The notes: generated by a model from the letters alone, not told the origin. Shown: positions 10,166-52,895, numbered from the stretch's first letter. The stretch is 64,000 nucleotides of DNA from Leptolyngbyaceae cyanobacterium (GCA_036703985.1 DATNQN010000123.1:62816-126815); one strand, 5' to 3'. A program made the numbers and translations.

Positions 10166-11077
10166 CTATAAGCACTCTCAGGATCAAAGCTTAGTTTACC
10201 GCAGGCGTTTCTGCCCCTCGTGCAAAACTCAGCAAAACTTTAAAGAACGTAATACGATGCTTGAATTTGTGGGCCACTCCCTGGCTGGGTAGGAGGCAGG
10301 AGGCTCTCAGGCAGGGCGTAAAGGGCTGGAGGAAAGATTTGTGACACTTTGTAAATTTAATTGGTCTAGAATTTTCTCTTTCCTTATTTTTTAATTGGTA
10401 GCCCATTTTACTTAAAAGACTTATCATTTTAGTTTATTTTCATTAAAAAGTGAAGCGTTTATATACGTAGACATTATTTTTATTTGCTACTGGGTTGTTT
10501 AAAAGTTTGGCAAACTAGAAGGAATTTGGTTAATAAGCTATTGACCTTTGTTGGTGGAAGAAAAACTTTTGATAGATGCGAAAGAGTAATGCTATAGCTT
10601 TACTAAAAATTTATCTAAATTTGATATTGCGATCGCATAACCTTCATATTCTTAAGGTTATGCTGCATCTAGCTTGGTTGCCCTAAAAAACAAAACGCCT
10701 CATCCTTTTAATATCTATCTTAGGGTAGATCCATCAGGTTAAACAACTGCTTTTCCTTCCAGGGTTATATCTACAGATAGACGCTCTAGGCAACAATAGC
10801 TCTTTTTTTGGATCTATCTTTAGATAGATCGGATTTTCATGCGTGCAAATCTATACTCACTTACTTGGGTATATTTTCAGAAAAAGAAATGCACCTAAGA
10901 AAGGCTAGTATGCTTCCCCATCAAGCACTTAAAAATATCATCAAGTGATGAAAATTTATTTTTTAAGGGTCGGGAACATGGTTTTTAAAACTACCGTCTA
11001 GTCGGTTATCGCATCTACCATTGTGTACTAAACGAAAGCCAAAAGCCTGTCCATAGTTTTTGCGGGAGATAAATTGT

Positions 11078-40053: not shown

Positions 40054-43000
40054 TTAGGACTGTAACTTAATTCCCAAAACTTGGGTATAAGCTCCCCTGG
40101 CTTGGGTAACACCAATCACGCGCTCTGCCGATTTAATCATGGGGCCTTTATGACTTACGACGATAAACTGTGCTTGGGTTGACTGTTGTTTGATTATTGT
40201 AGCCAATCGATCGACATTTGCCCCGTCTAAAAACATATCTACTTCATCAAAAGCGTAGAAAGGTGAAGGACGGTAACGTTGCAAGGCGAAAATAAAGCTA
40301 AGAGCAGTCATGGATTTTTCGCCACCAGACATGGATGCTAGGCGTTGTACTGGTTTACCTTTGGGATGAGCAACTAGGTTTAGTCCCCCGGAAAAGGGAT
40401 CGTCAGGGTTATCTAATGTTAAACTGCCATCTCCGTCGGAAAGTTCGGCAAAAATGCTTTGGAAGTTTTCGTTTACGGCGTCGAATGATTCTCGAAAAGC
40501 ACGTAACCGCAAGGTGGTGAAATTCTCAATTCGCAACAGTAATTCGGTGCGCTCTTGTTCTAGGGTAGTTAGTTTTTGGGTGAGTTCGTCGAGACGGGCT
40601 TGAGTGCGATCGTATTCTTCCAGGGCTAACATATTTACGGGTTCCATCGCCTGGAGTCGTTTTTGCAGAGATTTCATTTCTTTCTGCAATTCATCTAAAT
40701 TGACATCTTCTGGCACGCTTGGCAATGGTTCGGGTAACTCGGTTTGTTTGGCTTCCCGTAGTGCTTTGATGTTAGTTAATTCTTCCCGACGAGTAGCTTG
40801 AGTTTCTTGCAGTTTTTGCAATTCCCATTCTAATTGTTGTTGAGATAAGCGATGTTTTTGCAATTCGCTTTCCGTGCGATCGCGTTCTTTTTTCTCTTCT
40901 CCTAATTTCTCTTCTGCTTGAGTCATCGCAACTTGCGTTTGCGCTATCTGTTCGCTAATTACTGATAGCTGAGTTTTCACTCCTGACTCCTGACTCCTGA
41001 CTCCTGATTCCTGATTTTGATATTCTTCCACTCGTCGATGACAGTCTTGAATTTTTTCCTGCAACCGTTGTTGTTGATTTGCCAAATCTTTAACTCGTTG
41101 TTCCGCATTGCGAACGGCTTCTTCTCTTTCTCGTAATTCGGCTTCCTGCAATTTAATTCGAGCTTGAATTTGTTGCCATTCACTATGAGTTTGGGATTGT
41201 TCCAACTCTGCCAAAGCTTGACGCAGTTGGGCGAGTTGCGCTTCTTGTTCGGGTAATTGAACATCTAAAGATTGCAAACGAGATTCTGCGTTCGCTAGTT
41301 CTTGACTATTTTTTGCTAATTGCGATCGCGCTTGTTCTTGTTGCGCGATCGCATTCTTAATTTCTTTCTGCAATTGCTCAAAATGCAACTCCTGTTCCCG
41401 CCGTTGTTGGCGTGCTTCCGTCAACTCCTGACTTTTCTGTTTTACCTTACTAGTTAGAGAATGAATTGCCTCTCCACAGCGATCCAAAATGCGATCGATT
41501 TCCTGCAATCGATTTTTCAAAGCAACTGCTTCCGCCGACTCACTCGGATCGCCAATCCCAAAATGAAGAGTAGAACGTTGACTGAGACTACCACCAGTCA
41601 TCGCGCCACTAGTTTCTAACAATTCACCATCCAAAGTAACGATGCGATATTGCCCGATGTAAACTCGCGCATCATCCAATCTTTCAAATACAACCGTACC
41701 GCCAAATACATATTGAAAAACATTCCGATATCGAGAATCGTAATCGATTAAATTAACGCAATAATCGATAAATCCATTAGCATATTTTAATGATGTTGCC
41801 GGATGAAATGGGGGTGATTGAATTTTGTTTAAAGGTAAAAACGTAACTCGCCCTGCTCGTTTTTGTTTGATCAATTCAATTCCGGCAGCCGCCACTCCAT
41901 CATCTTCTACCACCAAATTACCCAAACGCCCACCAGCCGCCGTTTCCAGAGCGATTTGATAACGTGGATCAACTCTCCCCAATTGTGCAACTAAACCGCA
42001 AACTCCCGGCAATCCAGATTGTTGAATTAACTGAATTGCATAAGTACCTTGCGCTTCTTGTTGAGCTTGGGCTTGCGCTTCCAGTTTATCTAATTGGCGA
42101 TGTTTTTCTCGTTGTTCTTGTAATAAACGTTTTTGGGTTTCTTGCTGAAGTTGCAGTTCTTGTTCGGCAGCGGATAAAGTTTTGGCTAAGGTTTGTACTG
42201 TTTGAGCCGATTCTGATAATTGAATTTCAAAATCAGCCGCACGGGATTGTTTAGTTTCCAGTTGCGGTTCTAAGTCTTGCAAAAGTTGAGTTTGTTCTTC
42301 GATTTGACGAGATAAATTAGTATAACGTTCTCTTAGTTGCGCTTGTTCCGTGCGTTGGGGGTCGATGGTTTGCAAGAGGTTTTCCACTTGGCGAGTTAGG
42401 GCAGTTTGTTGTTGTACCCAAGCTTCCGATGCAGATGCGATCGCACTCGCATTTTCTCTGTTTTGATTTAAATCCTGGTGCGCTTCATTCCGTACCGCTA
42501 TTAAAGAAGATAACTGATGTTGCACAGTTGTCTGTTCGTGAGATAATTGTTCTATATTTTCTTCATATCTGGCAATCTCTTGCTGAGTTTCTTGCAAACG
42601 CCGTGCGGCTTCTTTGCCAGTATTTTCTAATTCCCGTTTCTGTCTTTCTAATTGTCGTTGTTCGGCTTGTTGAGTCGCGAGAACTGATTGCAAAGATAGT
42701 AATTCTTCTTCTCCCAAAGCTTTTACCCGCACGTTTAAGTCTTCTAATCGGGCAGTGGTTTGGGCGATTTGGGCGTTAATATTGGTTAGCTGTTCTGTTA
42801 ATTGAGTAGAATTGCGATCGCCAGCTTCGATTTGTTCCCTGAGATTCCATTCGTGTTGTTGCAGAGAACGCCACGCCAGCACGATTTCCCACTTTTCCTT
42901 TTCTTGAAGTTCGGCGCGAAGTTTTTGATATTTTTCTGCTTTAATGCGATCTTGAGAAAGACGATCGCGTTGCGCTGTCAATTCCTTTTCCACAATTCGA

Positions 43001-43719
43001 CAGCTATCTTCTTTTTCTTTAACTGTCTCTAAAGTTTCCTTTGCTTGGCTAATTTTGCGGTCAAAAGCTGCCACTCCCGCCAATTCATCGATGATTTCCC
43101 GCCGTTCTCTCCCATTCATCGAAATGATACTGGTGACATCCCCTTGCAGCACCACATTGTAACCTTCTGGATAAATTCGCAGCCGTTCTAACTGTTCGTG
43201 CAGTTCGGAAACGTTACAAGTTTGGCCATTAATGTAATAAGTCGAAGTGTAGCTACCCTGTTTGGTAACGCGCAACCGACGGGTGACACTCCATTCCTTT
43301 GCTGACTTAGCATCGGGATTTTCCGCCGTCGCACCATTTTGCGTCCCTACTTCCTCGCTCCCCTGCTCCTCTGCACCCCCGCTCCCCTGCTCCTCTGCAC
43401 CCTCGCTCCCCTGCTCCCCCGCTTCCTCCGTCACATCTGTTGGGAATGTATCCTCATCGCTCAAATCAAATGTAACAGTTACGATCGCTTCTGCCGCACC
43501 CCGCTGCATCTGATTTTGGTTCACCAAATCTGGCAGACGTTCCGCACGCATTCCCCTAGAACTCGCCAATCCCAGACAAAACAGCAGCGCATCCAGAATA
43601 TTCGATTTGCCCGAACCATTTGGCCCAGTAACCACAGTAAACCCAGGCAGCACGGGGATTTGGACAGTGCCACCAAAAGATTTAAAGTGAGTTAGTTCTA
43701 GGCGCTTGATATAAACCAT
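40054..43719 (-). CDS. smc: Chromosome segregation protein SMC
   Basis: 1221 aa. N-terminal Walker A FTVVTGPNGSGKSNILDALLFCLG, long coiled-coils and a hinge. C-terminal signature LSGGEKSMTALSFIFAL and Walker B FYAFDEVDMFLD. It contains two in-frame repeat-derived insertions (EEQGSEGAEEQGSGGAEEQGSEE near the N-terminus; ESGVRSQESGVKTQ mid-protein). Confidence 0.9.
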   Translation of the reverse strand: MVYIKRLELTHFKSFGGTVQIPVLPGFTVVTGPNGSGKSNILDALLFCLGLASSRGMRAERLPDLVNQNQMQRGAAEAIVTVTFDLSDEDTFPTDVTEEAGEQGSEGAEEQGSGGAEEQGSEEVGTQNGATAENPDAKSAKEWSVTRRLRVTKQGSYTSTYYINGQTCNVSELHEQLERLRIYPEGYNVVLQGDVTSIISMNGRERREIIDELAGVAAFDRKISQAKETLETVKEKEDSCRIVEKELTAQRDRLSQDRIKAEKYQKLRAELQEKEKWEIVLAWRSLQQHEWNLREQIEAGDRNSTQLTEQLTNINAQIAQTTARLEDLNVRVKALGEEELLSLQSVLATQQAEQRQLERQKRELENTGKEAARRLQETQQEIARYEENIEQLSHEQTTVQHQLSSLIAVRNEAHQDLNQNRENASAIASASEAWVQQQTALTRQVENLLQTIDPQRTEQAQLRERYTNLSRQIEEQTQLLQDLEPQLETKQSRAADFEIQLSESAQTVQTLAKTLSAAEQELQLQQETQKRLLQEQREKHRQLDKLEAQAQAQQEAQGTYAIQLIQQSGLPGVCGLVAQLGRVDPRYQIALETAAGGRLGNLVVEDDGVAAAGIELIKQKRAGRVTFLPLNKIQSPPFHPATSLKYANGFIDYCVNLIDYDSRYRNVFQYVFGGTVVFERLDDARVYIGQYRIVTLDGELLETSGAMTGGSLSQRSTLHFGIGDPSESAEAVALKNRLQEIDRILDRCGEAIHSLTSKVKQKSQELTEARQQRREQELHFEQLQKEIKNAIAQQEQARSQLAKNSQELANAESRLQSLDVQLPEQEAQLAQLRQALAELEQSQTHSEWQQIQARIKLQEAELREREEAVRNAEQRVKDLANQQQRLQEKIQDCHRRVEEYQNQESGVRSQESGVKTQLSVISEQIAQTQVAMTQAEEKLGEEKKERDRTESELQKHRLSQQQLEWELQKLQETQATRREELTNIKALREAKQTELPEPLPSVPEDVNLDELQKEMKSLQKRLQAMEPVNMLALEEYDRTQARLDELTQKLTTLEQERTELLLRIENFTTLRLRAFRESFDAVNENFQSIFAELSDGDGSLTLDNPDDPFSGGLNLVAHPKGKPVQRLASMSGGEKSMTALSFIFALQRYRPSPFYAFDEVDMFLDGANVDRLATIIKQQSTQAQFIVVSHKGPMIKSAERVIGVTQARGAYTQVLGIKLQS

Positions 43720-43976
43720 AAGTACGGGACAATCGATCGATTTTAGATTTTAGGTTTTAGATTTTAGATTGACCCTACGGATAAATCCGGGGAACGGTCA
43801 CTTGGACATGATGGTACAAGCGTATTACTAGGGATTTTCAACAGGTTAACACGGCCAGTCATATAGATGGAAGATACTATTCTATTCTCCAGCACGGGTA
43901 GAGATCACCCTGCTAGATTAGCAATTAATACTCCCCTATCCTTGGCAGTTCAGTAATTTACCCCTACTCAGTTTCT

Positions 43977-46136
43977 ATGACAATTCCTGAAATCCTCCAG
44001 CTAGTCCTCCAGCTAGTACCACTATGGCTACTGAACGGATTACTAATCGTTACTACGGGTCTTTTGATTAATGAATGGGGTAAGCCAGGTATTTCATCCC
44101 GACACAAATGGTTAATTCTTGGGCTAGGTGCTGTGTGTGGTTTAATGACAGCCTTAGTGAACTGGGCAAGTGATGCCACCTCAGAAGATAACCAAAGATA
44201 TTTTTTAGTCTTGGGCTATGCTTACTCGTTTTTAACAATCTTTTGGATTACCTACCAGCAAAATGCCGAAACTCCTTCCCCTCGCAATCAACTGCTTAAG
44301 GCTATCCGGGAAGAAGTAACCCAACGGCTAGAAACCTCGCTGCACAACCAAAAAATGATTGACTTAGCAGCAAAAGAGTTACCCCATCACGTCGGGAGAA
44401 TGCCGATTTCCGAGAAACCGCAACCGATAAACTGGATTGAACAATCGAAAGAGTGGATGTCGCAATTTTTGAGAATGCCAAATTCGGGAATTGCGACAAC
44501 TGATAACAGGGAAGATATTACCGCTCAAGAAAAAATCATTGATGTTTTTAAGAACAAAGACGGTAAATTACTAATTCTGGGAGAACCGGGTGCGGGAAAA
44601 ACTACAACCCTGCTAGATTTAGCGAAAGATTTATGTGTTGATGCAGTAGCAGACGAAAACAAACCCATCCCGATAATAGTTGACCTTTTTTCGTGGAAAG
44701 ATAACCGCCTTTCTCTACCTGATTGGTTGGCAGTAGAACTGAAAAATAAGTATGGTGTACGCGCCGATATTACTAAACAATTACTAGATAATCATCAGTT
44801 ATTACCATTACTGGATGGTTTCGATGAATTGGAAGAAAATCGACAAGTAAGCTGCATTCGACAAATAAATGAATTTCTGGAAACAGACGCTAGGGCGCAA
44901 CATTTGGTAGTTTGTTCTCGACTGAAAGAGTTTGAGCGATGCAATACACCTTTACGCCTAAACGGTGCAGTGTGTTTGCAACCTTTGGAACCAGCACAAA
45001 TGCAGAATTATTTACGCGAAGTAGGTTGTCTTAATTTATGGGATGGTATTAAATATACTTCTGATTTGTCGGAGTTGGCAAAGTCGCCCCTACTATTAAC
45101 TTTGATGGCGCTGGCATCTGGTTCTATTTCGATTTCGGATTGGCAAAAATGCAATACCGCTACGGAACGTCGTCGCTATCTGTTTGATGCCTATATCAAG
45201 CAAATGTTTAAGCGCGAGATTAAGCATAAATTTGAAAATTGTGACAATAAAAAGAAGGAATTAATAGAAAAACAACATTGCAAATGGTTGGCTTTTTTAG
45301 CAAAATCTTTAATAATAAATAATCAAACAGATTTTCTCATAGAAAAAATTCAGCCCAATCTGATAAATAACTCCAATCTTATTTTATGCTATCAGTTAAT
45401 ATTAATATTGCTTTCGCTTATACCAATCATACCATTTTTTGTAATTGTGTTATCACTTGGTGAACGTTTAATTTTAGGATTTTTAATGCTTATTATGGCA
45501 AAAGAAATTTTGAATTACTCTAATAATATTAATCCTTTAGCAACTTGGAAAATTTATTTAGTAGCAAGAGTAAATATGCCGCAATGGTTGGTTCGTAAAA
45601 TTATTTTTAATATGTTATTTATGGTAATATTACTTTCTCTAATTTTTGTAGTGTACTATACGCTATATACATTAATAATACCAATATATTCAGTGCTATT
45701 GTTAGTTATATGCCTATTCATTATATTAGTTTTGTCCGAATTTACAAAGGCTTTAAGAGTTGAAATAAAATATTTAATTAAACCAAATCAATTAATTTGG
45801 GAATCCGTTAAAAGCGCAATATCTTTTAGCGTCTTAACTTTCTTATTATTTATGATTCCTCTAATAACTTCAAAAATAGAAAAAATTAATTTTGATTTGC
45901 CATATGTACTTGCATTCGCAACATTTTCTGGAATATTATTTGGATTTTTTTTAGGTGGGGGTTTTGCTTGTATTCAACACTTTAGCTTGCGCCTAGTTCT
46001 TTGGTTGCATGGCGATATACCCTGGAACTATGCCAAATTCCTTAATTACGCCTCAGAGAAATTGTTTCTACAACGAATTGGTGGGCGTTATCGTTTCATT
46101 CACGATTTATTACGAGAGCATTTTGCTAATATGTAA
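43977..46136 (+). CDS. Membrane-embedded NACHT-family NTPase: N-terminal 3 TM, NACHT domain, polytopic TM region, then a C-terminal winged-helix-like end
   Basis: P-loop ILGEPGAGKTTTLLDLA. NACHT-type Walker B LLPLLDGFDELEE (hhhhDGhDE). A (V)VCSR motif follows. About 8 hydrophobic helices are encoded by a strongly AT-rich stretch (about 45300-45960). The terminal ...GDIPWNYAKFLNYASEKLFLQRIGGRYRFIHDLLREHFA resembles the STAND winged-helix FxHxxxQE(Y/H)FAA motif. Paralogous to 48521..51298. Confidence 0.65.
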   Translation: MTIPEILQLVLQLVPLWLLNGLLIVTTGLLINEWGKPGISSRHKWLILGLGAVCGLMTALVNWASDATSEDNQRYFLVLGYAYSFLTIFWITYQQNAETPSPRNQLLKAIREEVTQRLETSLHNQKMIDLAAKELPHHVGRMPISEKPQPINWIEQSKEWMSQFLRMPNSGIATTDNREDITAQEKIIDVFKNKDGKLLILGEPGAGKTTTLLDLAKDLCVDAVADENKPIPIIVDLFSWKDNRLSLPDWLAVELKNKYGVRADITKQLLDNHQLLPLLDGFDELEENRQVSCIRQINEFLETDARAQHLVVCSRLKEFERCNTPLRLNGAVCLQPLEPAQMQNYLREVGCLNLWDGIKYTSDLSELAKSPLLLTLMALASGSISISDWQKCNTATERRRYLFDAYIKQMFKREIKHKFENCDNKKKELIEKQHCKWLAFLAKSLIINNQTDFLIEKIQPNLINNSNLILCYQLILILLSLIPIIPFFVIVLSLGERLILGFLMLIMAKEILNYSNNINPLATWKIYLVARVNMPQWLVRKIIFNMLFMVILLSLIFVVYYTLYTLIIPIYSVLLLVICLFIILVLSEFTKALRVEIKYLIKPNQLIWESVKSAISFSVLTFLLFMIPLITSKIEKINFDLPYVLAFATFSGILFGFFLGGGFACIQHFSLRLVLWLHGDIPWNYAKFLNYASEKLFLQRIGGRYRFIHDLLREHFANM

Positions 46137-46186
46137 GTGCCTTCTCACAGTAGTTTAAAATAGTTCTATTATCAAGTGAAACAAAT

Positions 46187-46879
46187 ATGGCAACCCACGT
46201 AATTAACCAGCCAGTTCTTGAAATACCACCCTTAGAAAGTGGCGACAGATTAACGCGCAATGAATTTGAACGGCGTTATGAAGCTATGTCGCATATTAAG
46301 AAAGCAGAATTAATTGAAAGAGTGGTTTATATCCAGACATCAGTGCGTTGTAAAAGTCATGCAGAACCACACGCTAAAATAGTCGCTTGGTTGGGTAACT
46401 ATTGTGCAAAAACACCAGGGGTTGATTTACTAGATAATACAACAGTTCGTCTGGATGAAGATAACGAACCACAACCAGATGCAATGTTGCGAATAGATGT
46501 AGGCGGACAGTCTCGAATTACTGATGATGACTATGTGGAAGGTGCGCCGGAATTAATTGTTGAAATAGCAGCTAGTAGCGCTTCTTATGATTTACACGAT
46601 AAGTTAAAAGTTTACCGACGCAATCGAGTACAAGAATATTTAGTGTGGCGAGTTTATAACAAAGAGTTTGATTGGTTTAGATTAAATCAAGGTGAATATC
46701 TACCTGTAGAACTAAATACAGATGGTGTTATTTGCAGTCAAGTTTTTCCAGGTTTGTGGTTAGCAGTTGCTGATTTGTTAGATGGAAATTTAGCGGAAGT
46801 GTTGGCTGTGTTGCAGAAAGGATTGGAAACGGCAGAACATCAGGCTTTTGTGGAAAGGTTATCTACTTCAACGCCTTGA
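46187..46879 (+). CDS. Uma2 family endonuclease (DUF820)
   Basis: About 60% identical to the product of 1043..1726 (RNEFERRYEAMSHIKKAELIERVVYIQ...PELIVEIAASSASYDLHDKLKVYRRN). Confidence 0.8.
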   Translation: MATHVINQPVLEIPPLESGDRLTRNEFERRYEAMSHIKKAELIERVVYIQTSVRCKSHAEPHAKIVAWLGNYCAKTPGVDLLDNTTVRLDEDNEPQPDAMLRIDVGGQSRITDDDYVEGAPELIVEIAASSASYDLHDKLKVYRRNRVQEYLVWRVYNKEFDWFRLNQGEYLPVELNTDGVICSQVFPGLWLAVADLLDGNLAEVLAVLQKGLETAEHQAFVERLSTSTP

Positions 46880-47186
46880 TTGTAAGGAAATTGTGAATGG
46901 AGTACATAGAAACCCGGTTTCTTCAAGAAACCGGGTTTCTATCTTCTATTTCATGCAACTGCGATCGCACTTTTCAATAAAAGTAGGTATCATAAATCAA
47001 ACAACAGTATAAATTTCACTAAAAACAGTACTTAATCAAACATACCCATTACAAAAAATCGAACTTTTTGAATAGCAAATATGTATTATTAGTAAACTTT
47101 TCTAACATCTTCTTACCCAACAGTTGAATAAATAAAAAAATCGGGAACAATGAAAATACAAATCAAAGTTCCACGGGTAATTTTCT

Positions 47187-48317
47187 ATGCCAGTTAACAT
47201 TTACTCCAACTTAGTTGGAGATGGTTTAGAGTCGGAAGAAATCAAGCTGTATAACTTAATCAATCAGTATCGCGCTCAAAATGGACTACCCCCCATTGCA
47301 GCATCAAAAGCACTAACAACTGTTGCTAATCGCCACGTTCAAGATGTAGCAGAAAATTTACAAATAAAGATTAACGATTCCCGGAATCCACATTCTTGGA
47401 GTGATGCACCTTACGATCCTAATAATCCCAATACCTACTCTACTGTATGGGAAGCACCCAAACGTTTGAATACAGGTTATCCGGGTTTCGGTTATGAAAA
47501 TTTTTATATAACAACTGCACCTTTTACAAGTGCAGAACAAGTATTTGAAGCTTGGCAAAAGAGTCCTCCGCACAAGGCTTTAATGCTCAACCAAGATATT
47601 TGGCAGGAGCGAACTTGGAACGCTTTAGGAATTGGTATATATAAAGGATATGCTGCTTTGTGGGTTGGCGAACAAATCGATCCTACTGGTACGCCAAGTT
47701 TCGCCAACGATTCGATTACAGGTACGGATAATAGCGATACTCTGACGGGAACCGATCGCAATGATACGATAATTGCTTTAGCAGGCGATGATGTACTATT
47801 CGGTTATTCTGGCGATGATGCGTTATTCGGTAACTTGGGAAACGATACTATTTTTGGCTGGGAAGGTAACGATACGCTGCAAGGAGGTAAAGATAATGAT
47901 TGGTTATTCGGCAATCTAGGTAAAGATATTATCTATGGAAATCAAGGCAACGATACTATTTTTGGCGGCAAAGATGATGACATCATTTATGGCGGTAAAG
48001 ATAATGATGCGTTATTTGGCGATATAGGTAACGATCTGATATCTGGCGATTTTGGTGCTGATGTTTTAACGGGTGGTGCTGGTAACGATTTGTTTATTTT
48101 ACAATCTGCTAAAGGTGCAGATGTAATTACTGATTTTGCCGATGGAGTTGATTTAATTGGCTTAAGTAATGGGCTGAATTTTGCTAGTCTGACAATTACT
48201 CAAGGTACTGGTAATGATGTTGGTAATACTTTGATTAGTAGTAAAAATCAATTACTAGCGGTGCTGACAGGAGTGCAAGCAACGGCTATTACTGATGCAG
48301 ATTTCCGCCAGATTTAA
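47187..48317 (+). CDS. Secreted CAP (SCP/PR-1-like) domain protein fused to RTX-type Ca-binding nonapeptide repeats
   Basis: N-terminal YNLINQYRAQNGLPPIAASKALTTVANRHVQDVA...GYENFY (CAP-like). Then more than 12 consecutive GG.G.D..x-like nonapeptides (GTDRNDTIIALAGDDVLFGYSGDDALFGNLGNDTIFGWEGNDTLQGGKDNDWLFG...). Confidence 0.7.
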   Translation: MPVNIYSNLVGDGLESEEIKLYNLINQYRAQNGLPPIAASKALTTVANRHVQDVAENLQIKINDSRNPHSWSDAPYDPNNPNTYSTVWEAPKRLNTGYPGFGYENFYITTAPFTSAEQVFEAWQKSPPHKALMLNQDIWQERTWNALGIGIYKGYAALWVGEQIDPTGTPSFANDSITGTDNSDTLTGTDRNDTIIALAGDDVLFGYSGDDALFGNLGNDTIFGWEGNDTLQGGKDNDWLFGNLGKDIIYGNQGNDTIFGGKDDDIIYGGKDNDALFGDIGNDLISGDFGADVLTGGAGNDLFILQSAKGADVITDFADGVDLIGLSNGLNFASLTITQGTGNDVGNTLISSKNQLLAVLTGVQATAITDADFRQI

Positions 48318-48520
48318 AGATTATTTAGCAAAATAAATTAATTATACACGCGATTTTATTACATCTTGTATTAAGAGGCAGAGCCTCTATTTTTTCGTTC
48401 CCAGGTTGAACCTGGGAACGAGATCTGGGAGGTTCTACCTCCCTTACTGCAAACCAACACAAAACACCTATTCTCATCTATGATTCTGATAGACTAAAAA
48501 AGCCAGTCAAGTGATATCAG

Positions 48521-51298
48521 ATGACATCAGCGCTGTTAAACAACCGCTATCGCATCATTCAGGCGCTAGGAAAAGGTGGATTTGGCGAAACCTTTCTGGC
48601 GGAAGACACTCATATGCCTTCCCGCCGTTTGTGCGTGATTAAACAACTAAAACCCGTCATTACCAATAATCCCCAAATTTACCAAATCGTGCAAGAGCGA
48701 TTTGAACGGGAAGCGGCGATTTTAGAGCAGTTAGGGGAAGGTAATCACCAAATTCCTAAATTGTATGCTTATTTTGCTGAAAACGGACAATTCCACTTAG
48801 TACAAGAGTGGATAGAAGGGGTTACTCTGACTGAAAAATTGCAGCAAGAGGGACTAGTTGACGAGACAGTAGTTAGAGAAATTCTTTTAAGTCTTTTGCC
48901 AGTACTTGATTATATTCACAGTCGAGGAATTATTCATCGCGATATTAAACCTAGCAATATTATTTTAAGGAAGCGAGATCGCAAACCTGTTTTAATTGAT
49001 TTTGGTATTGCTAAAGAAACGATGAGTACCACAATTGACGATGCTGGAGAAATTACTAGCTCGATTGTAGTTGGTACAAAAGGTTTTATGCCACCGGAAC
49101 AAGCTGCTGGTAAACCAGTGTTTGCTAGCGATATTTATAGCTTGGGTTTAACAGCAATTTATCTGCTCACAGGGAAACGTCCCCACGAATTAGAAACCAA
49201 TTTACAAACAGGGGAAACTAGTTATAATTCAGAAACCAAAAATATTAGTTCTAACTTAGCAATTGTATTAAATAAAGCAGTGCGATCGAATCACAAAGAA
49301 CGCTATCCCACTGCCAGAGAAATGCTAGTTGCTTTAGAACCAGTCGATCGCATACACCATTCACCACAAATTAACCAATCTTCTCCTATTTTACCATCAT
49401 CTCAGTCAGCCATAACCGAAGCCCACGAAGGAGAAACAGCCACTTTCGTTACCAACGCTCAAACCAAAGCAACTACCCAAATTTCTTATACCAGACAAGA
49501 GTGCCGCAACCGCCAAATCTTACTAAACAAAGTTAAAAATTACTGGATTAAGGGAGTGTTGGAAAGTTCATTACATGGCAAAGCGCTGATTGAACTTGGT
49601 TTGGAAAAACGGTTAGATGCAGTCGAGCGTCCTTGGGGATTAGTTTGGGAAACAACAAATTCGTCCAGGCAAACTTTACCCCCCAAAACTAAGTTAATCC
49701 ACCAATTCGATAAATTAGGAGAAGGACGCACTTTACTGATATTAGGAGAACCGGGAGGCGGTAAAACAACTACGCTTCTAGAACTTGCACGAGATTTAAT
49801 AAATCGCGCTGAAGGAGATATAAATCATCCCATTCCCGTGTTGTTTAACTTATCCTCTTGGACGAATGAAAAAATAGGTTTAATCAAGAAAAAAGCCGTA
49901 GCGTCTTTTGCCGATTGGTTAGTTCAAGAACTCAATACTAAATATCAAGTTTCTCAACAAATCGGGCAAAGTTGGGTAAAAAATCAAGAATTAATTTTGA
50001 TGTTAGACGGTTTAGATGAAGTTAGTGCTAACCGTCGGGAATTGTGCGTGCAAGCCATCAATTCATTTATGCAAGAAAACGGACAAACAGAAATTGTCGT
50101 TTGTTGCAGGATCGAAGATTACGAAGCGCTGTCCAATCGTCTGAAATGTCAAGCAGCAATTGTCATTCAACCTTTAACGATCGAGCAAATTCATCAATAC
50201 TTAGCTGCTGCTGGTGATGATTTAACCGCCGTCAATCAAGCATTATCAGCAGATAGCATCCTCCAAGAGTTAGCGCGATCGCCTTTAATGCTAAGTATAA
50301 TTACTCTAGCATACCGGGGAATGTCAATCACCGAATTACCGGAAATGAATTTAGAACAACGCCGCCAACATCTATTTAACAACTATGTTAAAAGAATGTT
50401 CGAGCGGCGAACTACTAAATTTAAATATTCAAAAGAGCAAGCCATGCACTGGCTGATTTGGCTAGCAAAAAAAATGGTTGAAGATTCCCAAACAGTATTT
50501 TTAATCGAGCGAATGCAGCCAAAATGGTTATCGAATCAAATCCAAAAGCAAGTGTATTTTGTAGGTTTATTAATTGCCTTTATTATCATCGGTGGTTTAA
50601 TCGGTCAAATGCTTTTACCGATTAAAAGAGTAATTTTTTGGCTCATTCTAGTAGGAATTATTCTCAGCTATCTTTTTGGTATTAATCAAATCAATCCCGT
50701 CGAATCTCTCAAATGGTCGTGGAAAAACGCTCGCAATAACATATTGGGCAGCTTGATTATCGGGGCGCTTTTGGGATTCTTACTCAGAATTCCTTACGAA
50801 CTGATCTTTCGTCCCCAGCAGTGGCAAATATTTGCGCCTCATTTAATTCATTTTCAACTTTATTCATTAACTCGCGCCACGGTTTTTGGTATGAGCATCG
50901 GCTTAATTTTTGGCTTAGTGCGTGGCTTAACCGCTCCCTCTATTGACGAAAACGTAACAGTTCCCAATCAAGGCATTTGGCAATCCGCCAAAAACGCTTT
51001 AATTTTTGGTGTCTTGGGTTTTTTAGTATTGGGAATAGCCGCTAAAATATTAAATTGGTCTATTTTCTTTTGGGGAACTTTCGGATTATCCTTTGGCATG
51101 GTAATGGGCGGAGGAGAAGCTTGTTTAAAACACTTTATTTTACGCCTAGTCCTCTATTTTAACGGTTATATTCCTTGGAACTATGCCCGTTTTCTCGACT
51201 ATGCCAGCGAGCGCATCTTTTTGCAAAAAGTAGGTGGCGGTTATATTTTCGTTCATAGATTATTGTTAGAACATTTCGCCCAAACTCCAGAGCGTTAA
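48521..51298 (+). CDS. Hanks-type Ser/Thr protein kinase fused to a NACHT-family NTPase with a polytopic membrane region and a terminal winged-helix-like end
   Basis: Kinase: GKGGFGETFLAEDT...VIKQL, HRDIKPSNIIL, DFGIAK, GTKGFMPPEQ. NTPase: ILGEPGGGKTTTLLELA, Walker B LILMLDGLDEVS, VVCCR. About 8 TM helices, then FILRLVLYFNGYIPWNYARFLDYASERIFLQKVGGGYIFVHRLLLEHFAQ, which aligns with the C-terminus of the 43977..46136 product. Confidence 0.75.
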   Translation: MTSALLNNRYRIIQALGKGGFGETFLAEDTHMPSRRLCVIKQLKPVITNNPQIYQIVQERFEREAAILEQLGEGNHQIPKLYAYFAENGQFHLVQEWIEGVTLTEKLQQEGLVDETVVREILLSLLPVLDYIHSRGIIHRDIKPSNIILRKRDRKPVLIDFGIAKETMSTTIDDAGEITSSIVVGTKGFMPPEQAAGKPVFASDIYSLGLTAIYLLTGKRPHELETNLQTGETSYNSETKNISSNLAIVLNKAVRSNHKERYPTAREMLVALEPVDRIHHSPQINQSSPILPSSQSAITEAHEGETATFVTNAQTKATTQISYTRQECRNRQILLNKVKNYWIKGVLESSLHGKALIELGLEKRLDAVERPWGLVWETTNSSRQTLPPKTKLIHQFDKLGEGRTLLILGEPGGGKTTTLLELARDLINRAEGDINHPIPVLFNLSSWTNEKIGLIKKKAVASFADWLVQELNTKYQVSQQIGQSWVKNQELILMLDGLDEVSANRRELCVQAINSFMQENGQTEIVVCCRIEDYEALSNRLKCQAAIVIQPLTIEQIHQYLAAAGDDLTAVNQALSADSILQELARSPLMLSIITLAYRGMSITELPEMNLEQRRQHLFNNYVKRMFERRTTKFKYSKEQAMHWLIWLAKKMVEDSQTVFLIERMQPKWLSNQIQKQVYFVGLLIAFIIIGGLIGQMLLPIKRVIFWLILVGIILSYLFGINQINPVESLKWSWKNARNNILGSLIIGALLGFLLRIPYELIFRPQQWQIFAPHLIHFQLYSLTRATVFGMSIGLIFGLVRGLTAPSIDENVTVPNQGIWQSAKNALIFGVLGFLVLGIAAKILNWSIFFWGTFGLSFGMVMGGGEACLKHFILRLVLYFNGYIPWNYARFLDYASERIFLQKVGGGYIFVHRLLLEHFAQTPER

Positions 51299-51632
51299 AA
51301 ATTGAAAAAACGGATTTTTGCTGGCTCTAATGCTGACTTAAGAAAAGTAGTTTGTAATTTTCATAACAAAATGCGATCGCAATTCCTCAATAGTACTTCA
51401 GCAACCTCATGTTTTATATCAAGCCACACCCTGACAATACGAAAAATCTTCATAGCAAGTACTAGATTACAAACGACACATTGCTGAAAATCAAACAACT
51501 TTCAGTAGAAGTACTGATTTTTATGCCGAAGGGTAGAAATGTTGTTATGATGGCTGGTTACAGTAGGGTAACATCTCTCCCTACTTAGCCCAAATATTAT
51601 TTATCCGCCAGATACTCAAGGAGGATTTACCC

Positions 51633-52895
51633 TTGTCTCGTCGCTACTTGTTCACCTCCGAATCAGTAACCGAAGGTCATCCAGATAAAATCTGCGATCA
51701 AATTTCCGACAGTATTTTAGACGCCCTACTAACCCAAGACCCCTACAGCCGCGTAGCCGCAGAAGTAGTGGTCAATACAGGCTTAGTGCTAATTACTGGA
51801 GAAATTACCACCAATGCACAAGTTAATTATGTTGATATAGCTCGAAAGAAAATTGCTGAAATTGGCTATATTCATGCAGAAAACGGTTTTTCTGCCAATA
51901 GTTGTTCCGTTCTAGTTGCTTTAGACGAACAATCCCCCGATATTGCTCAAGGGGTTAACGCCGCTCAAGAAACCCGCGAACAAACTAGCGACGAGAAATT
52001 TGACTCGATTGGCGCTGGCGACCAAGGTTTAATGTTTGGGTTTGCCTGCAATGAAACACCAGAATTAATGCCATTGCCAATTAGTTTAGCTCACCGCATT
52101 TCCCGCCGATTAGCAGCAGTCAGGAAAACAGGAGAGTTGTCTTACCTGCGTCCCGACGGTAAAACTCAGGTAACCGTTGTCTACGAAAGTGGAAAACCCG
52201 TCGGCATCGATACTATTCTGGTTTCCACCCAGCATACCGCCACCATTGGCGACATTACCGAAACGGAAGCCGTCCAAGCCAAAATCAAAGAAGACCTCTG
52301 GAGTGCAGTAGTAGAACCTGTTTTTGCCGATATTGACATCAAGCCAGATGCCAACACTCGCTTTTTGGTAAACCCCACCGGCAAATTCGTCGTTGGTGGC
52401 CCTCAAGGAGACTCCGGCCTCACCGGTCGTAAAATTATTGTCGATACCTACGGTGGTTACTCCCGTCACGGTGGCGGTGCTTTCTCCGGTAAAGACCCCA
52501 CCAAAGTAGACCGTTCTGCTGCTTATGCTTGTCGTTATGCGGCTAAAAATATCGTCGCAGCAGGTTTGGCAGATAAGTGCGAAGTGCAACTCAGTTACGC
52601 CATTGGCGTAGCTCGCCCCGTCAGCATTATGGTAGATACTTTCGGAACCGGCAAAGTAGATGATTACCTATTGCTGGATTTGGTGAAAAAGCATTTTGAA
52701 CTACGTCCGGCGGGTATTATCGAAACATTTAATTTGCGTAAACTGCCAGCCGAACGGAACGGTCGTTTTTATCAAAATGTCGCCGCTTACGGTCACTTAG
52801 GACGCACGGATTTAGATTTGCCTTGGGAGAAAACCGATAAGGCATCCATATTGAGAGAAGAAGCACTAGCCGCTACTGGCGCTGCTGCTCACTAA
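51633..52895 (+). CDS. metK: S-adenosylmethionine synthetase
   Basis: TTG start with an AAGGAGG ribosome-binding site 8 nt upstream. Conserved motifs: [58 protein letters not shown]. Confidence 0.95.

What the first reader, a model, noticed from the sequence alone, without database searches (positions are those of the whole stretch)
43977..51298. Paralogous NACHT NTPases with a polytopic membrane insertion before the winged-helix end; one fused to a Hanks Ser/Thr kinase
Both proteins have a NACHT-type NTPase (GEPGxGKTT; hhhhDGhDE Walker B; VVC(S/C)R). In place of the usual C-terminal WD40/TPR sensor repeats they carry about 8 hydrophobic helices. These are followed by a conserved terminal segment (…GxIPWNYA(K/R)FL(N/D)YASE(K/R)(L/I)FLQ(R/K)(I/V)GG.Y.F(I/V)H.LL.EHFA). 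That segment resembles the STAND winged-helix FxHxxxQEYFAA motif. The membrane region therefore appears inserted between the helical domain and the winged helix, and the protein ends there. The first paralog starts with 3 TM helices, and its membrane region is markedly AT-rich. The second starts with a complete Hanks kinase (HRDIKPSNIIL, DFGIAK). They bracket an Uma2 nuclease gene and a secreted CAP-RTX protein gene. Bacterial NACHT proteins are known antiphage/NLR-like factors. A membrane-embedded, repeat-less, kinase-coupled version has not to my knowledge been described.
Basis: partly seen in the sequence, partly recalled or inferred. Interest (0 to 1): 0.8.

Follow-up and report, generated by a model that had tools for sequence, protein, structure and literature searches.

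The report
NACHT switches split by membrane helices
Two neighbouring cyanobacterial genes encode NLR-like NACHT ATPase switches whose final regulatory (winged-helix) domain is interrupted by a six-helix membrane bundle; they belong to a very large family that has been noted in one line of the literature but never studied.

Summary
ORFs 43977-46136 (A, 719 aa) and 48521-51298 (B, 925 aa) are paralogs, 34% identical over 632 aa. Both have intact NACHT motifs, and B carries a complete PknB-like Hanks kinase. Two details need correcting. The hydrophobic block is six TM helices, not about eight, with an N-in/C-in topology. It also sits inside the winged-helix domain rather than before it. The conserved C-terminal segment aligns with the NLRP3 WHD 'FYSFIH..QEFFAA' motif, and the family's invariant His falls opposite NLRP3 H522.

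The module is not rare. The TM block plus C-terminus alone finds 7,010 clusters at 50% identity. These are mostly from filamentous cyanobacteria, with a few Anaerolineae and one ANME-2 archaeal MAG. N-terminal domains are swappable: kinase, caspase, CHAT, TIR, cyclase, EAD1/8/10 or a 3-TM module. A few members add WD40 after the C-terminal segment.

[quoted passage not shown] The novelty claim is therefore not supported at the level of kind, although nothing is known about mechanism.

Two features appear to be undescribed. The TM helices are hypervariable and mosaic in the A lineage. Tightly coupled tandem gene pairs recur across the family. There is no defence-island context.

The parts
43977..46136 (+). 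Paralog A, 719 aa: 3TM - NACHT - helical/WH-N - 6TM insert - WH-C
   Evidence: ORF. Pfam NACHT above cut-off. 100% identical to P0121 from a Leptolyngbyaceae MAG. AF2 model pLDDT 78.3. Best PDB folds are NOD2, NLRC4 and NLRP3.
43977..44264 (+). A residues 1-96: three N-terminal TM helices, in the position where other members carry an effector
   Evidence: AF2 helices 5-34, 41-65 and 72-96. Conserved from Met1 in orthologs P0122-P0138. 70% identical to the Argonema orthologs but only 34% to P0122/P0123, so the region is mosaic.
44547..45026 (+). A residues 191-350: NACHT nucleotide-binding domain
   Evidence: Walker A at 202, Walker B D-G-F-D-E at 278, VVCSR at 311. Pfam match 199-348. 94-96% identical to P0122/P0123.
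45027..45362 (+). A residues 351-462: helical domain plus the first part of the winged helix (…KWLAFLAKSL…DFLIEKIQP)
   Evidence: AF2 helices 353-447. Homologous to B 566-670. The spliced family profile always breaks here.
45363..45977 (+). A residues 463-667: six-helix TM insert, AT-rich and hypervariable
   Evidence: AF2 helices 466-491, 494-516, 536-563, 568-592, 605-632 and 641-678. GC3 is 0.19. Only 21-26% identical to orthologs whose NACHT domain is 94-96% identical. Open for 205 codons, P about 4e-8, 0 of 20,000 shuffles.
45978..46133 (+). A residues 668-719: C-terminal half of the winged helix, with invariant His709
   Evidence: 87-90% identical among orthologs. hhalign places the motif on NLRP3 'FYSFIH…QEFFAA'.
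46187..46879 (+). Uma2-family PD-(D/E)xK protein, 50 bp downstream of A
   Evidence: Pfam Uma2 E 5.7e-35. PADLOC candidate PDC-S03 E 1.7e-18. Linked to A only in the close clade WIN, L001-L003, L005, L015, not in distant A-type loci.
46906..46942 (+). 17-bp perfect hairpin followed by a T-rich tail, a likely terminator of an A-Uma2 transcript
   Evidence: Terminator scan. This is a pattern match only.
47187..48317 (+). CAP + RTX-repeat protein; a passenger gene, not part of the system
   Evidence: Pfam. Present in WIN and L002 but absent from the syntenic Argonema loci L001, L003 and L005.
48521..51298 (+). Paralog B, 925 aa: Hanks kinase - linker - NACHT - helical/WH-N - 6TM insert - WH-C
   Evidence: ORF. 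Pfam. AF2 model pLDDT 81.7. Orthologs are 72-97% identical with full coverage.
48521..49345 (+). B residues 1-275: PknB-like Ser/Thr kinase domain with all catalytic motifs
   Evidence: Pkinase E 1.1e-38. Foldseek hit to S. aureus and M. tuberculosis PknB, TM 0.77-0.80. Motifs confirmed.
49346..49705 (+). B residues 276-395: disordered linker (276-317), then a conserved pre-NACHT helical region (NRQILLNKVKNYWIKGVLE.SLH…)
   Evidence: pLDDT below 50 at 276-317, helix 325-350. Invariant columns K337 to W376.
49706..50215 (+). B residues 396-565: NACHT nucleotide-binding domain
   Evidence: Pfam NACHT 403-561, 33 bits. Walker A at 409, D-G-L-D-E at 496-500, VVCCR at 526.
50216..50530 (+). B residues 566-670: helical domain plus the first WH helix/strand (HWLIWLAKKMVEDSQTVFLIERMQP)
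   Evidence: AF2 helices 566-663. The global hhalign puts 'LIWLA…' on NLRP3 'LCSLAADGIW…'.
50531..51136 (+). B residues 671-872: six-helix TM insert with two conserved cytoplasmic loops (INPVESLKWSWKNA and VPNQGIWQSAKNA)
   Evidence: AF2 helices 673-698, 701-719, 734-763, 773-803, 817-843 and 848-880, pLDDT mostly 84-96. Six family-averaged hydropathy peaks. Positive-inside pattern. Internal repeat, hhalign E 8e-5.
51137..51295 (+). B residues 873-925: C-terminal half of the winged helix, with invariant His912
   Evidence: Near-invariant across 88 homologs. hhalign to the NLRP3 WHD. WD40 follows this segment in P0163 and P0368.

Best explanation
A and B are catalytically competent NACHT-clade STAND (NLR-like) NTPase switches that sit in a membrane.

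Shown here:
- A bundle of six TM helices is inserted inside the winged-helix domain (WHD). It lies after the first WH helix/strand and before the recognition helix and the 'Y.F.H…EHFA' element.
- Both ends of the insert, its two conserved loops, the NACHT core and the N-terminal domain are all on the cytoplasmic side. Almost nothing is exposed on the far side of the membrane.
- This NACHT-[6TM]-WH unit is a constant module. Variable output domains are fused to its N-terminus, and occasionally classical sensors to its C-terminus.

Inferred:
- In solved NLRs the WHD histidine contacts the bound ADP and locks the closed state (established for NLRP3 H522, NLRC4 H443 and Apaf-1). The family's invariant His aligns with it.
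- The membrane bundle is therefore wired directly into the hinge that controls activation.
- I propose that a change within the membrane rearranges the bundle. Candidates are a bound membrane protein or lipid, or a loss of membrane integrity or potential, for example during phage entry or lysis.
- The rearrangement would pull the two WH halves out of the ADP-locked state and allow nucleotide exchange and oligomerisation in the plane of the membrane.
- The N-terminal domains would then be activated by proximity: trans-autophosphorylation and substrate phosphorylation by the PknB-like kinase in B, and membrane perturbation or partner recruitment by the 3-TM module in A.
- The effector repertoire and phyletic pattern make the most likely biological role a conflict, abortive-infection or cell-suicide type response in multicellular cyanobacteria.
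For: NACHT membership:
- Pfam matches above cut-off in both proteins.
- The D[GAS]hDE Walker B signature is present. Kibby et al. give this as the defining signature.
- The best PDB folds for A are NOD2, NLRC4, NLRP3, NLRP7/9 and NAIP5, E about 1e-5 and 277-409 aligned columns, ahead of ORC/Cdc6 and Apaf-1.

Six TM helices, N-in/C-in:
- AF2 models and family-averaged hydropathy.
- Net charge is +2.4 before the block, +2.3 in loop 2-3, +1.2 in loop 4-5 and +2.0 after it, against about 0 for loops 1-2, 3-4 and 5-6.

C-terminal segment is the WH His motif:
- Local hhalign E 2e-4, score 26.9 against shuffles of 10.8 +/- 2.2, maximum 21.4, 0 of 200.
- The global alignment spanning the splice junction scores 12.5 against 3.2 +/- 2.2, 0 of 200.
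- The NLRP3 bait segment is Pfam NOD2_WH, via the fragment P0388.

The insert is a separable element inside one module:
- Its length ranges from 60 to 480 aa, with a mode of 200-240.
- Natural variants have about 2 TM (P0236), 4 TM (P0171, P0178) or only about 28 hydrophobic residues (L025).
- The spliced profile always splits exactly at the junction.
- WD40, Tll0287-like or S26 domains can follow the C-terminal segment.

Constant module with variable effectors:
- Pkinase, Guanylate_cyc, CHAT, Peptidase_C14, TIR_2, AAA_35, EAD1, EAD8 and EAD10 all occur.
- Among 56 diverse full-length representatives retrieved by TM block plus C-terminus alone, 55 have NACHT, 8 Pkinase, 4 CHAT and 2 cyclase.

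Conflict-like evolution:
- In the A lineage the TM helices are 21-26% identical where the NACHT domain is 94-96% identical, and the N-terminus is mosaic. The frame is nevertheless held open.

Literature:
- Kibby et al. predict that the TM class senses 'intra-membrane or periplasmic signals'.
Against: - No function, trigger or oligomer has been shown for any member.
- Sequence profiles with the TM block deleted did not reach NLR structures or any Pfam WH family by HMM-to-sequence search. The WH assignment therefore rests on a short profile match plus model topology.
- AF2 confidence is lowest exactly at the predicted wing (B 899-910, about 57; A 699-705, below 50). No coordinates were available to inspect the His-nucleotide geometry.
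- Neighbourhoods are housekeeping or regulatory, not defence islands.
- B is well conserved and syntenic next to smc across genera, including its TM block at 62-65% identity. That looks more like a vertically inherited signalling protein than a fast-evolving immune gene.
- Rapid divergence of the TM helices in the A lineage could simply reflect weak constraint on hydrophobic helices.
Confidence: 0.5

Rival explanations
1. The six-helix block is only a membrane anchor or 2-D scaffold. It concentrates the NACHT switch at a membrane, while the trigger is sensed elsewhere: by the conserved cytoplasmic loops, by the conserved pre-NACHT helical region, by a partner protein, or by the appended C-terminal domains in the members that have them.
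For: - The parts of the block that are strongly conserved are the two cytoplasmic loops and the junction 'GGGEAC.KH', not the helices or the outward-facing loops.
- The number of TM helices varies from about 2 to 8 or more without loss of the rest.
- Some members add WD40 or Tll0287-like sensor domains.
- The pre-NACHT region is nearly invariant.
Against: - A plain anchor would more simply sit at a terminus. Inserting it in the WHD, and conserving that site across thousands of clusters, suggests coupling to the switch.
- Most members, A and B included, end 5-15 residues after the WH and have no other candidate sensor.
Confidence: 0.22
2. These proteins are not immune or conflict proteins. They would be NTP-gated membrane signalling proteins for envelope, thylakoid or developmental signalling in filamentous cyanobacteria, with B acting as a regulated Hanks kinase.
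For: - The smc-A-Uma2-B synteny is conserved across genera, and B is 72-74% identical throughout.
- Flanking genes are housekeeping: smc, metK, PBP4, AspRS, GlmS, UvrD.
- Distant A-type genes sit among housekeeping and two-component genes.
- Cyanobacterial STAND proteins can be ordinary regulators, for example XssQ (PMC8205485).
Against: - The same module is fused to caspase, CHAT, TIR and the effector-associated domains EAD1/8/10. Kaur et al. (PMC7159879, PMC8195603) and Kibby et al. assign these to conflict systems.
- The A lineage shows a mosaic, hypervariable pattern.
- One copy lies on a plasmid (L075).
Confidence: 0.2
3. The TM block is itself the effector. NTP-driven oligomerisation would assemble the glycine-rich helices into a pore or a membrane lesion, with the N-terminal domains as accessories. 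This would apply especially to members such as A that have no enzymatic domain.
For: - The TM helices of most members are rich in GxxxG/'GLIFGL' repeats: 12% Gly and 7 GxxxG in B.
- About two thirds of diverse members have no recognisable enzymatic domain.
- TM effectors are common in abortive-infection systems (general knowledge).
Against: - In STAND proteins the variable end is the effector, and here the TM block is the constant part.
- A itself has lost the Gly-rich character: 3% Gly and 2 GxxxG.
- An effector embedded in the regulatory WHD has no precedent.
- Enzymatic effectors are present in many members.
Confidence: 0.08

Closest known systems
Bacterial NACHT (bNACHT / NLR-related) proteins, sensor class 4 'TM regions' of Kibby et al. 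(bioRxiv 10.1101/2022.07.19.500537; Cell 2023)
   Same: - NACHT core with D[GAS]hDE, and a tripartite logic with variable N-terminal effectors that include S/T/Y kinases, caspases, TIR, cyclases and EADs.
- Enriched and multi-copy in multicellular cyanobacteria.
[quoted passage not shown]
   Different: - The paper gives one sentence. It has no insertion site, topology or family description, and its Table S1 carries no TM annotation. I could not identify A/B relatives or their clade in it.
- No TM-insert member has a described function.
- The antiphage bNACHTs tested there are enterobacterial proteins with other C-terminal domains.
Animal NLR NACHT modules (NLRP3, NOD2, NLRC4/NAIP)
   Same: - Best structural matches to A.
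- The 'Y.F.H…E.FA' element aligns with the NLRP3 WHD 'FYSFIHMTFQEFFAA', which contains the ADP-contacting H522.
- Some NLRs work as pairs (NAIP-NLRC4), which recalls the tandem gene pairs seen here.
   Different: - Animal NLRs are soluble, have a contiguous WHD followed by HD2 and LRRs, and signal through CARD or PYD adaptors.
- Sequence identity is only 12-18%.
KAP-family P-loop NTPases (Aravind et al. 2004, Genome Biol 5:R30; cited in PMC8195603)
   Same: The precedent for TM helices inserted within, rather than appended to, a STAND-related NTPase. KAP proteins are also used in conflict systems.
   Different: - In KAP the TM segments interrupt the P-loop domain itself. Here the NBD and helical domain are uninterrupted and the insert is in the winged helix.
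- There is no Pfam KAP_NTPase match at E <= 0.1.
PknB/Stk1-type Hanks kinases and kinase-based defence proteins (PD-T4-6, MADS Mad6, BREX PglW)
   Same: - B's N-terminal domain is a complete Hanks kinase. PknB is the top fold match.
- It scores with PADLOC PD-T4-6 models (E 1e-106) and with NCBIfam MAD6 and PglW.
   Different: - Those hits cover only the kinase domain and lie far below the NCBIfam family cut-offs.
- There are no PASTA domains.
- None of those systems couples the kinase to a NACHT.
Avs/AVAST and other antiviral STANDs (PMC13581612)
   Same: Single-gene STAND architecture, with an N-terminal effector and oligomerisation-driven activation.
   Different: - Avs proteins belong to different STAND clades and have soluble C-terminal TPR-like sensors that bind phage proteins.
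- No TM insert in the NTPase module is described.

Membership tests
NACHT clade of STAND NTPases | Walker A GxxxxGK[ST] P-loop | tested here: met
   A has GEPGAGKT at 202 and B has GEPGGGKT at 409. The motif is invariant in 88 and 79 homologs respectively.
NACHT clade of STAND NTPases | Walker B with the D[GAS]hDE signature (definition quoted from Kibby et al.) | tested here: met
   A has LLDGFDE at 278 and B has LDGLDE at 495-500.
NACHT clade of STAND NTPases | Match to the Pfam NACHT model (PF05729) above its gathering score | tested here: met
   A scores 28.9 and B 33.0 bits against a cut-off of 26.7. 55 of 56 diverse family representatives match at E <= 1e-5.
NACHT clade of STAND NTPases | NBD-HD1 fold closest to solved NACHT proteins rather than to other AAA+/STAND clades | tested here: met
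   The Foldseek top 12 for A are NOD2, NLRC4, NLRP3, NLRP7, NLRP9 and NAIP5 (E 9e-6 to 8e-5). ORC1/Cdc6 and Apaf-1 rank lower.
NACHT clade of STAND NTPases | C-terminal winged-helix extension carrying the conserved nucleotide-sensing His | tested here: met
   - hhalign of the spliced family profile against the PDB-verified NLRP3 WHD aligns GGYIFVHRLLLEHFA with KFYSFIHMTFQEFFA (E 2e-4; 0 of 200 shuffles reach the score).
- The global alignment spans the junction.
- The support is moderate. The core is 18 columns, AF2 confidence is low at the wing, and HMM-to-PDB and Pfam searches were negative.
NACHT clade of STAND NTPases | [quoted passage not shown] | tested here: inconclusive
   A strongly conserved pre-NACHT helical region exists (B 329-376; A 106-130). 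It was not compared with the published signature, because that figure is not held.
bNACHT antiphage defence proteins | Protection against phage on expression | not testable with these tools
   No experiment was possible. No characterised close relative was found in the literature searches.
bNACHT antiphage defence proteins | Genomic association with defence islands or mobile elements | tested here: not met
   - Across 83 loci the only recurring neighbours are smc (8 loci), Uma2 (6), histidine kinases (13) and further family paralogs (10).
- The window flanks and three distant A-type loci are housekeeping.
- One copy is on a Sphaerospermopsis plasmid (L075).
Hanks-type (eukaryote-like) Ser/Thr protein kinases | Gly-loop, VAIK Lys, HRD catalytic loop with Asn, DFG and APE-like motifs; Pkinase model; kinase fold | tested here: met
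   GKGGFG at 17, CVIK at 38, HRDIKPSN at 139, DFG at 160, PPE at 191. Pkinase E 1.1e-38. PknB structures match with TM 0.77-0.80.
KAP-family NTPases | TM helices inserted inside the P-loop NTPase domain; KAP_NTPase profile | tested here: not met
   The NBD is uninterrupted: Pfam NACHT covers 1-160 of 167 profile positions in one stretch, and there is no KAP_NTPase hit. The insert starts about 110 residues after the NBD.
DGR-diversified STAND sensors | Template/variable repeat pair and a reverse transcriptase near the hypervariable region | tested here: not met
   No repeat involves A's TM block within 43000-52000. No RT-like ORF was annotated among the large ORFs of the window.

The most novel reading that the evidence does not exclude
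The membrane bundle inserted in the winged helix is the sensor. That would make this family an NLR whose ADP-locked hinge is gated directly by the state of the membrane: an intramembrane ligand, a phage membrane protein, or loss of integrity or potential. The recurrent, sometimes translationally coupled, tandem gene pairs would work as sensor/helper hetero-oligomers like NAIP-NLRC4 or plant paired NLRs. These pairs include A (a fast-evolving TM block with no enzyme) with B (a conserved TM block plus kinase), and the 14-nt-overlapping kinase pairs in L021 and L042.
Probability: 0.25. Interest if true: 0.75.

Novelty: new member of a known kind. Interest (0 to 1): 0.42.

Why it matters
NLR/STAND switches are central to innate immunity in animals, plants, fungi and bacteria. 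All mechanistic models come from soluble proteins whose sensors are appended repeats.

Here the candidate input element is a membrane bundle spliced into the domain that holds the switch closed. The arrangement defines thousands of protein clusters in multicellular cyanobacteria, with some spread to Chloroflexi and possibly to ANME archaea.

If the bundle does gate the switch, it would be a distinct way of coupling membrane events to NTP-dependent oligomerisation and to kinase, caspase or TIR outputs. The module is compact, the kinase gives a direct read-out, and natural 2-, 4-, 6- and 8-TM variants exist, so the question is experimentally tractable.

If the bundle is only an anchor, the family is still a large uncharacterised block of cyanobacterial NACHT proteins that current annotation labels simply 'protein kinase' or 'NACHT domain-containing protein'.

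Tried and rejected
1. **Spliced-profile searches.** I deleted the TM block in silico and searched PDB sequences with the spliced module profile (A2) and with the spliced WH profile (A3). Only generic P-loop hits (ORC1, RFC) or non-significant hits came back. Pfam on the spliced sequences gave no WH family. These tests were inconclusive, not negative evidence.
2. **Fold search with the full B model.** It returned only kinases. A was modelled instead to see the NACHT.
3. **Relatives with an uninterrupted WH.** I looked among 80 genome loci. The apparent 'contiguous' tblastn matches were extensions into TM1, and only L025 is a near-deletion variant. Every NACHT ORF in the fetched loci belongs to the TM family.
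4. **Last homolog search.** I spent it on the NLRP3 WHD to build an NLR profile. The collection holds almost no animal NLRs, and only one 63-aa fragment was found.
5. **A-Uma2 as a sensor-nuclease operon.** Rejected as a general system. Uma2 is adjacent only in the close syntenic clade and is absent from three distant A-type loci.
6. **CAP/RTX gene as part of the system.** Rejected, because it is absent from the syntenic Argonema loci.
7. **A as a decaying pseudogene.** Rejected. Despite the AT-rich block, the frame is open for 205 codons at P about 4e-8.
8. **DGR-type diversification of A's TM block.** Rejected, because no template repeat was found.
9. **KAP NTPase membership.** Rejected.
10. 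**Kibby et al. Table S1.** I searched it for TM or kinase+NACHT entries matching this family. The table carries no TM tokens and the clade could not be identified.
12. **Promoter scan.** The count was not above chance: 23 sites against 23.7 expected.


Full report
**1. What is in the sequence**

The interval holds four same-strand ORFs:
- A: 43977-46136, 719 aa.
- A Uma2-family gene: 46187-46879.
- A CAP + RTX-repeat gene: 47187-48317.
- B: 48521-51298, 925 aa.

smc (40054-43719, minus strand) lies upstream and metK (51633-52895) downstream.

Pfam places a NACHT domain above its gathering score in both proteins: A at 28.9 bits (residues 199-348) and B at 33.0 bits (residues 403-561), against a cut-off of 26.7. 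It also places a protein-kinase domain at B 10-268 (E 1.1e-38), Uma2 (E 5.7e-35), and CAP plus RTX repeats.

A and B are paralogs. BLASTP gives 34% identity over 632 residues (E 4e-95), and the alignment runs from the pre-NACHT region to the last residues.

All catalytic motifs are intact. This includes the Walker A motif and the D-G-h-D-E Walker B signature that defines the NACHT clade according to Kibby et al.. It also includes 'VVC[SC]R' and, in B, the Gly-loop, VAIK-type Lys, HRDIKPSN, DFG and PPE motifs.

A is 100% identical to an NCBI protein from a Leptolyngbyaceae cyanobacterium MAG (P0121). HIP1-like GCGATCGC sites fit a cyanobacterial origin.

**2. Anatomy of the membrane block**

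AlphaFold2 models were built with family alignments. The B model has mean pLDDT 81.7 and the A model 78.3.

Both models show six long helices in the hydrophobic region:
- B: 673-698, 701-719, 734-763, 773-803, 817-843, 848-880.
- A: 466-491, 494-516, 536-563, 568-592, 605-632, 641-678.

Two short helices follow, and then the protein ends.

Hydropathy averaged over 88 homologs also gives six peaks.

Charge distribution follows the positive-inside rule. The segment before TM1 (+2.4 net K/R per sequence), loop 2-3 (+2.3), loop 4-5 (+1.2) and the segment after TM6 (+2.0) are basic. Loops 1-2, 3-4 and 5-6 are neutral, and they are either 3-4 residues long or poorly conserved.

The topology is therefore N-in/C-in. 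The NACHT core, both conserved loops ('INPVESLKWSWKNA' and 'VPNQGIWQSAKNA') and the C-terminal segment all face the cytoplasm, and almost nothing is exposed on the other side.

The two loop-plus-helix units are weakly related to each other (hhalign E 8e-5; score 27.2 against 10.7 +/- 2.9 for column shuffles, 0 of 60). L078 contains a literal tandem duplication of such a unit. The block probably grew by duplication of hairpin units.

**3. Is the C-terminal segment the winged helix, and where is the insert?**

The segment '…IPWNYA[RK]FL.YA.E[RK].FLQ[KR].GG.Y.F.H.LL.EHFA' is nearly invariant in both lineages.

To test the assignment I retrieved the true NLRP3 WHD sequence from PDB (7pzc_A residues 469-539). 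Its only relative in the protein collection carries Pfam NOD2_WH.

A profile of family sequences with the TM block removed (A3) aligns 'GGYIFVHRLLLEHFAQTP' with NLRP3 'KFYSFIHMTFQEFFAAMY'. The statistics are E 2e-4 and probability 46%. The score of 26.9 compares with 10.8 +/- 2.2 (maximum 21.4) for 200 shuffled targets.

The invariant family His (B H912, A H709) falls on NLRP3 H522. From established structural work on NLRP3, NLRC4 and Apaf-1, this WHD histidine contacts the bound ADP in the closed state.

A global alignment spans the splice junction. It places 'LIWLA…' on the first WHD helix 'LCSLAADGIW…' and 'ARFLDYASERIFLQKV' on 'SAFLRMNLFQKEV'. It also beats all 200 shuffles (12.5 against 3.2 +/- 2.2), although per-column confidence is low outside the core.

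Structurally, A's best PDB matches are NOD2, NLRC4, NLRP3, NLRP7/9 and NAIP5, with E from 9e-6 and 277-409 aligned columns. ORC1/Cdc6 and Apaf-1 rank lower.

Independent support comes from architecture. Two unrelated members (P0163, P0368) carry WD40 β-propellers directly after this segment. Others carry a Tll0287-like domain or an S26 peptidase. This is the position where NLR sensors follow the NACHT module.

The weaker side of the evidence:
- HMM-to-sequence searches of the spliced profiles against PDB and Pfam found no WH.
- AF2 confidence is lowest at the predicted wing.
- I had no coordinates to inspect.

I conclude, with moderate confidence, that the six-helix block is inserted inside the wHTH, after its first helix/strand and before the recognition helix.

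**4. The family**

This is not a rare oddity.

The NACHT-TM-C-terminal module of B finds hundreds of full-length cyanobacterial homologs at 51-97% identity.

An exhaustive HMMER search with only the TM block plus C-terminus (B 664-925) finds 7,010 clusters at 50% identity with E <= 1e-3, and 4,384 with E <= 1e-10. The match almost always ends at the protein's C-terminus.

A scan of one genome per species returned at least 580 loci. The 80 best are nearly all from filamentous or otherwise multicellular cyanobacteria. The exceptions are two Anaerolineae MAGs (L045, L073), one ANME-2 'Ca. Methanogaster' MAG (L059; binning not verified) and one plasmid copy (L075).

The insert length between the 'FLIE.MQP' and 'IPWNY' anchors is usually 200-240 aa but ranges from 60 to 480. 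Natural variants exist with about 2 TM (P0236), 4 TM (P0171, P0178), 8 or more TM, and a near-deletion (L025). A spliced profile always splits exactly at the junction.

N-terminal domains are interchangeable:
- Pkinase
- Pkinase plus cyclase
- Guanylate_cyc
- CHAT
- caspase
- TIR
- AAA_35
- EAD1, EAD8 and EAD10
- the 3-TM module of the A type
- nothing recognisable

Among 56 diverse full-length representatives retrieved by the TM/C-terminal part alone, 55 have NACHT, 8 Pkinase, 4 CHAT and 2 cyclase.

This is the STAND pattern of a constant switch with variable effectors. The effector set is the one that Kaur et al. (PMC7159879, PMC8195603) and Kibby et al. assign to conflict systems of multicellular bacteria.

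**5. Surroundings**

smc-A-Uma2-B is conserved in a close relative (L002), in two Argonema species (L001, L005), in L003 and partly in Microseira (L015). The CAP/RTX gene is present only in the window and in L002.

Clustering of 885 neighbouring ORFs from 83 loci found no other conserved partner.

Three distant A-type genes stand alone among housekeeping and two-component genes, with no Uma2 nearby.

The window itself is housekeeping: GlmS, AspRS, PBP4, SMC, MetK and UvrD.

A strong hairpin after Uma2 (46906-46942) and another after the CAP/RTX gene suggest that A-Uma2 and B are separate transcripts. This is a pattern match only.

There is therefore no defence-island context, and the 'bracketing' is clade-level synteny.

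Pairing is a recurrent feature. Ten of 83 loci hold two family genes. These include two kinase-type genes overlapping by 14 nt in L021 and L042, and a 10-nt gap in L047.

**6. An unexpected feature of A**

A is a mosaic when compared with P0122 and P0123:

| Region | Identity to P0122/P0123 |
|---|---|
| NACHT domain | 94-96% |
| C-terminal segment | 87-88% |
| TM block | 21-26%, with indels |
| N-terminal 3-TM region | 34% (but 70% to the Argonema orthologs) |

All five close A-type orthologs differ from one another in the TM helices. They keep the two cytoplasmic loop motifs and the junction 'GG.ACIQHF.LRL'.

In this genome the block has GC3 of 0.19, against 0.30-0.44 elsewhere in the gene. 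It has also lost the Gly-rich GxxxG character of the family: 3% Gly against 12% in B.

It is not decaying. The frame is open for 205 codons (P about 4e-8; 0 of 20,000 shuffles), while the other two frames carry 29 and 13 stops.

No DGR-like repeat is present.

B shows no such pattern. Its TM block is 62-65% identical to orthologs, against 75-80% for the NACHT domain.

Whether the A pattern reflects diversifying selection, cassette exchange or weak constraint is open.

**7. How it most likely works**

Shown: an active NACHT core, a six-TM N-in/C-in insert, a WH-type C-terminal element with the invariant His, and variable N-terminal effectors.

Inferred: the WHD is the element that locks NLRs in the ADP-bound state, so a membrane bundle spliced into it is positioned to transmit changes in the membrane to the lock. 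I propose the following sequence:
1. A rearrangement of the bundle occurs, caused by an intramembrane ligand, a phage or host membrane protein, or a loss of integrity or potential.
2. The lock releases.
3. Nucleotide exchange and oligomerisation follow in the plane of the membrane.
4. The N-terminal domains are activated by proximity. In B this would be trans-autophosphorylation of a PknB-like kinase joined by a disordered linker (residues 276-317). In A it would involve the 3-TM module.

The minimal external exposure argues against a periplasmic ligand for A and B.

Rivals:
- The block is only an anchor, and sensing happens elsewhere.
- The proteins are housekeeping membrane-signalling switches rather than conflict proteins. 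The synteny and conservation of B support this, as does the XssQ precedent.
- The Gly-rich helices are themselves a pore-forming effector.

**8. Comparison with what is known, and novelty**

Kibby et al. (bioRxiv 10.1101/2022.07.19.500537, published in Cell 2023) classify bacterial NACHT C-terminal regions. [quoted passage not shown] They also list S/T/Y kinases among the effectors.

I found no description of several things:
- the insertion site within the WHD
- the topology
- the size of the family
- the hypervariable TM helices
- the tandem pairs
- any experiment on such a protein

KAP NTPases are the nearest precedent for TM helices inside a STAND-related NTPase. There the P-loop domain itself is interrupted, which is not the case here.

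I rate this a new member of a known kind. The anatomy is interesting and testable, but the mechanism is unproven.

Noticed in passing
window 30660-33341 (+): An 893-aa ORF is a full Major Vault Protein homolog: Vault repeats E 8.5e-67, MVP_shoulder E 2.3e-52, plus Vault_2/3/4. Vault-protein homologs are unusual in bacteria, so this may deserve its own look.
   Followed up: no
window 2916-4895 (+): PatG-like subtilase (Peptidase_S8 + PatG_D + PatG_C). This is the macrocyclase-type protease of cyanobactin pathways, so a cyanobactin cluster may lie at the start of the window.
   Followed up: no
window 45363-45977 (A residues 463-667) compared with P0122-P0125: Mosaic evolution. The TM block is 21-26% identical to orthologs whose NACHT domain is 94-96% identical, and GC3 is 0.19. 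The N-terminal 3-TM region matches a different ortholog group best, 70% against 34%. The frame is kept open.
   Followed up: partly
L021 3521-9029; L042 3494-9020; L047 5445-9137; L015 6261-11485: Family genes recur as tight tandem pairs. Two kinase-type genes overlap by 14 nt in L021 and L042, L047 has a 10-nt gap, and L015 pairs a kinase type with a non-kinase type. This suggests functional pairing.
   Followed up: partly
L059 1-2001 (Ca. Methanogaster MAG); L045 6285-9224 and L073 94-2943 (Anaerolineae MAGs): Complete family members occur outside cyanobacteria, in an ANME-2 archaeal MAG and two Chloroflexi MAGs. Contig binning was not checked, so horizontal transfer and contamination are both open.
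   Followed up: no
L075 7101-9821 (Sphaerospermopsis NIES-73 plasmid) and P0296: Some members add a TM helix plus a Tll0287-like domain after the WH segment. In L075 that domain contains a CxxCH haem-binding motif. This would be an extracytoplasmic sensor appended to the same module.
   Followed up: partly
window 46906-46942 (+): A perfect 17-bp inverted repeat (ATAGAAACCCGGTTTCT…AGAAACCGGGTTTCTAT) lies just downstream of Uma2. It is a likely terminator, but it is long enough to be a protein-binding or repeat element.
   Followed up: no
window 43262-43700 (SMC N-terminal region, minus strand): smc carries an acidic low-complexity insert (…EEQGSEGAEEQGSGGAEEQGSEE…). It shows up as an 8-nt-phased repeat and a local GC peak of 0.52. 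The insert is also present in the L002 ortholog.
   Followed up: no
window 53156-54370 (-): A 404-aa ORF that, by my own reading, looks like a TnpB/IS605-family transposon-associated protein; it was not scanned against any family library. Similar copies occur in 5 of the surveyed loci.
   Followed up: no
window 11060-13048 (+): A 662-aa ORF with no Pfam match at E <= 1e-5.
   Followed up: no
window 43977 compared with NCBI protein P0121: The public annotation of A starts 29 codons downstream (690 aa) and removes the first of three conserved TM helices. Ortholog alignment supports the ATG at 43977.
   Followed up: yes
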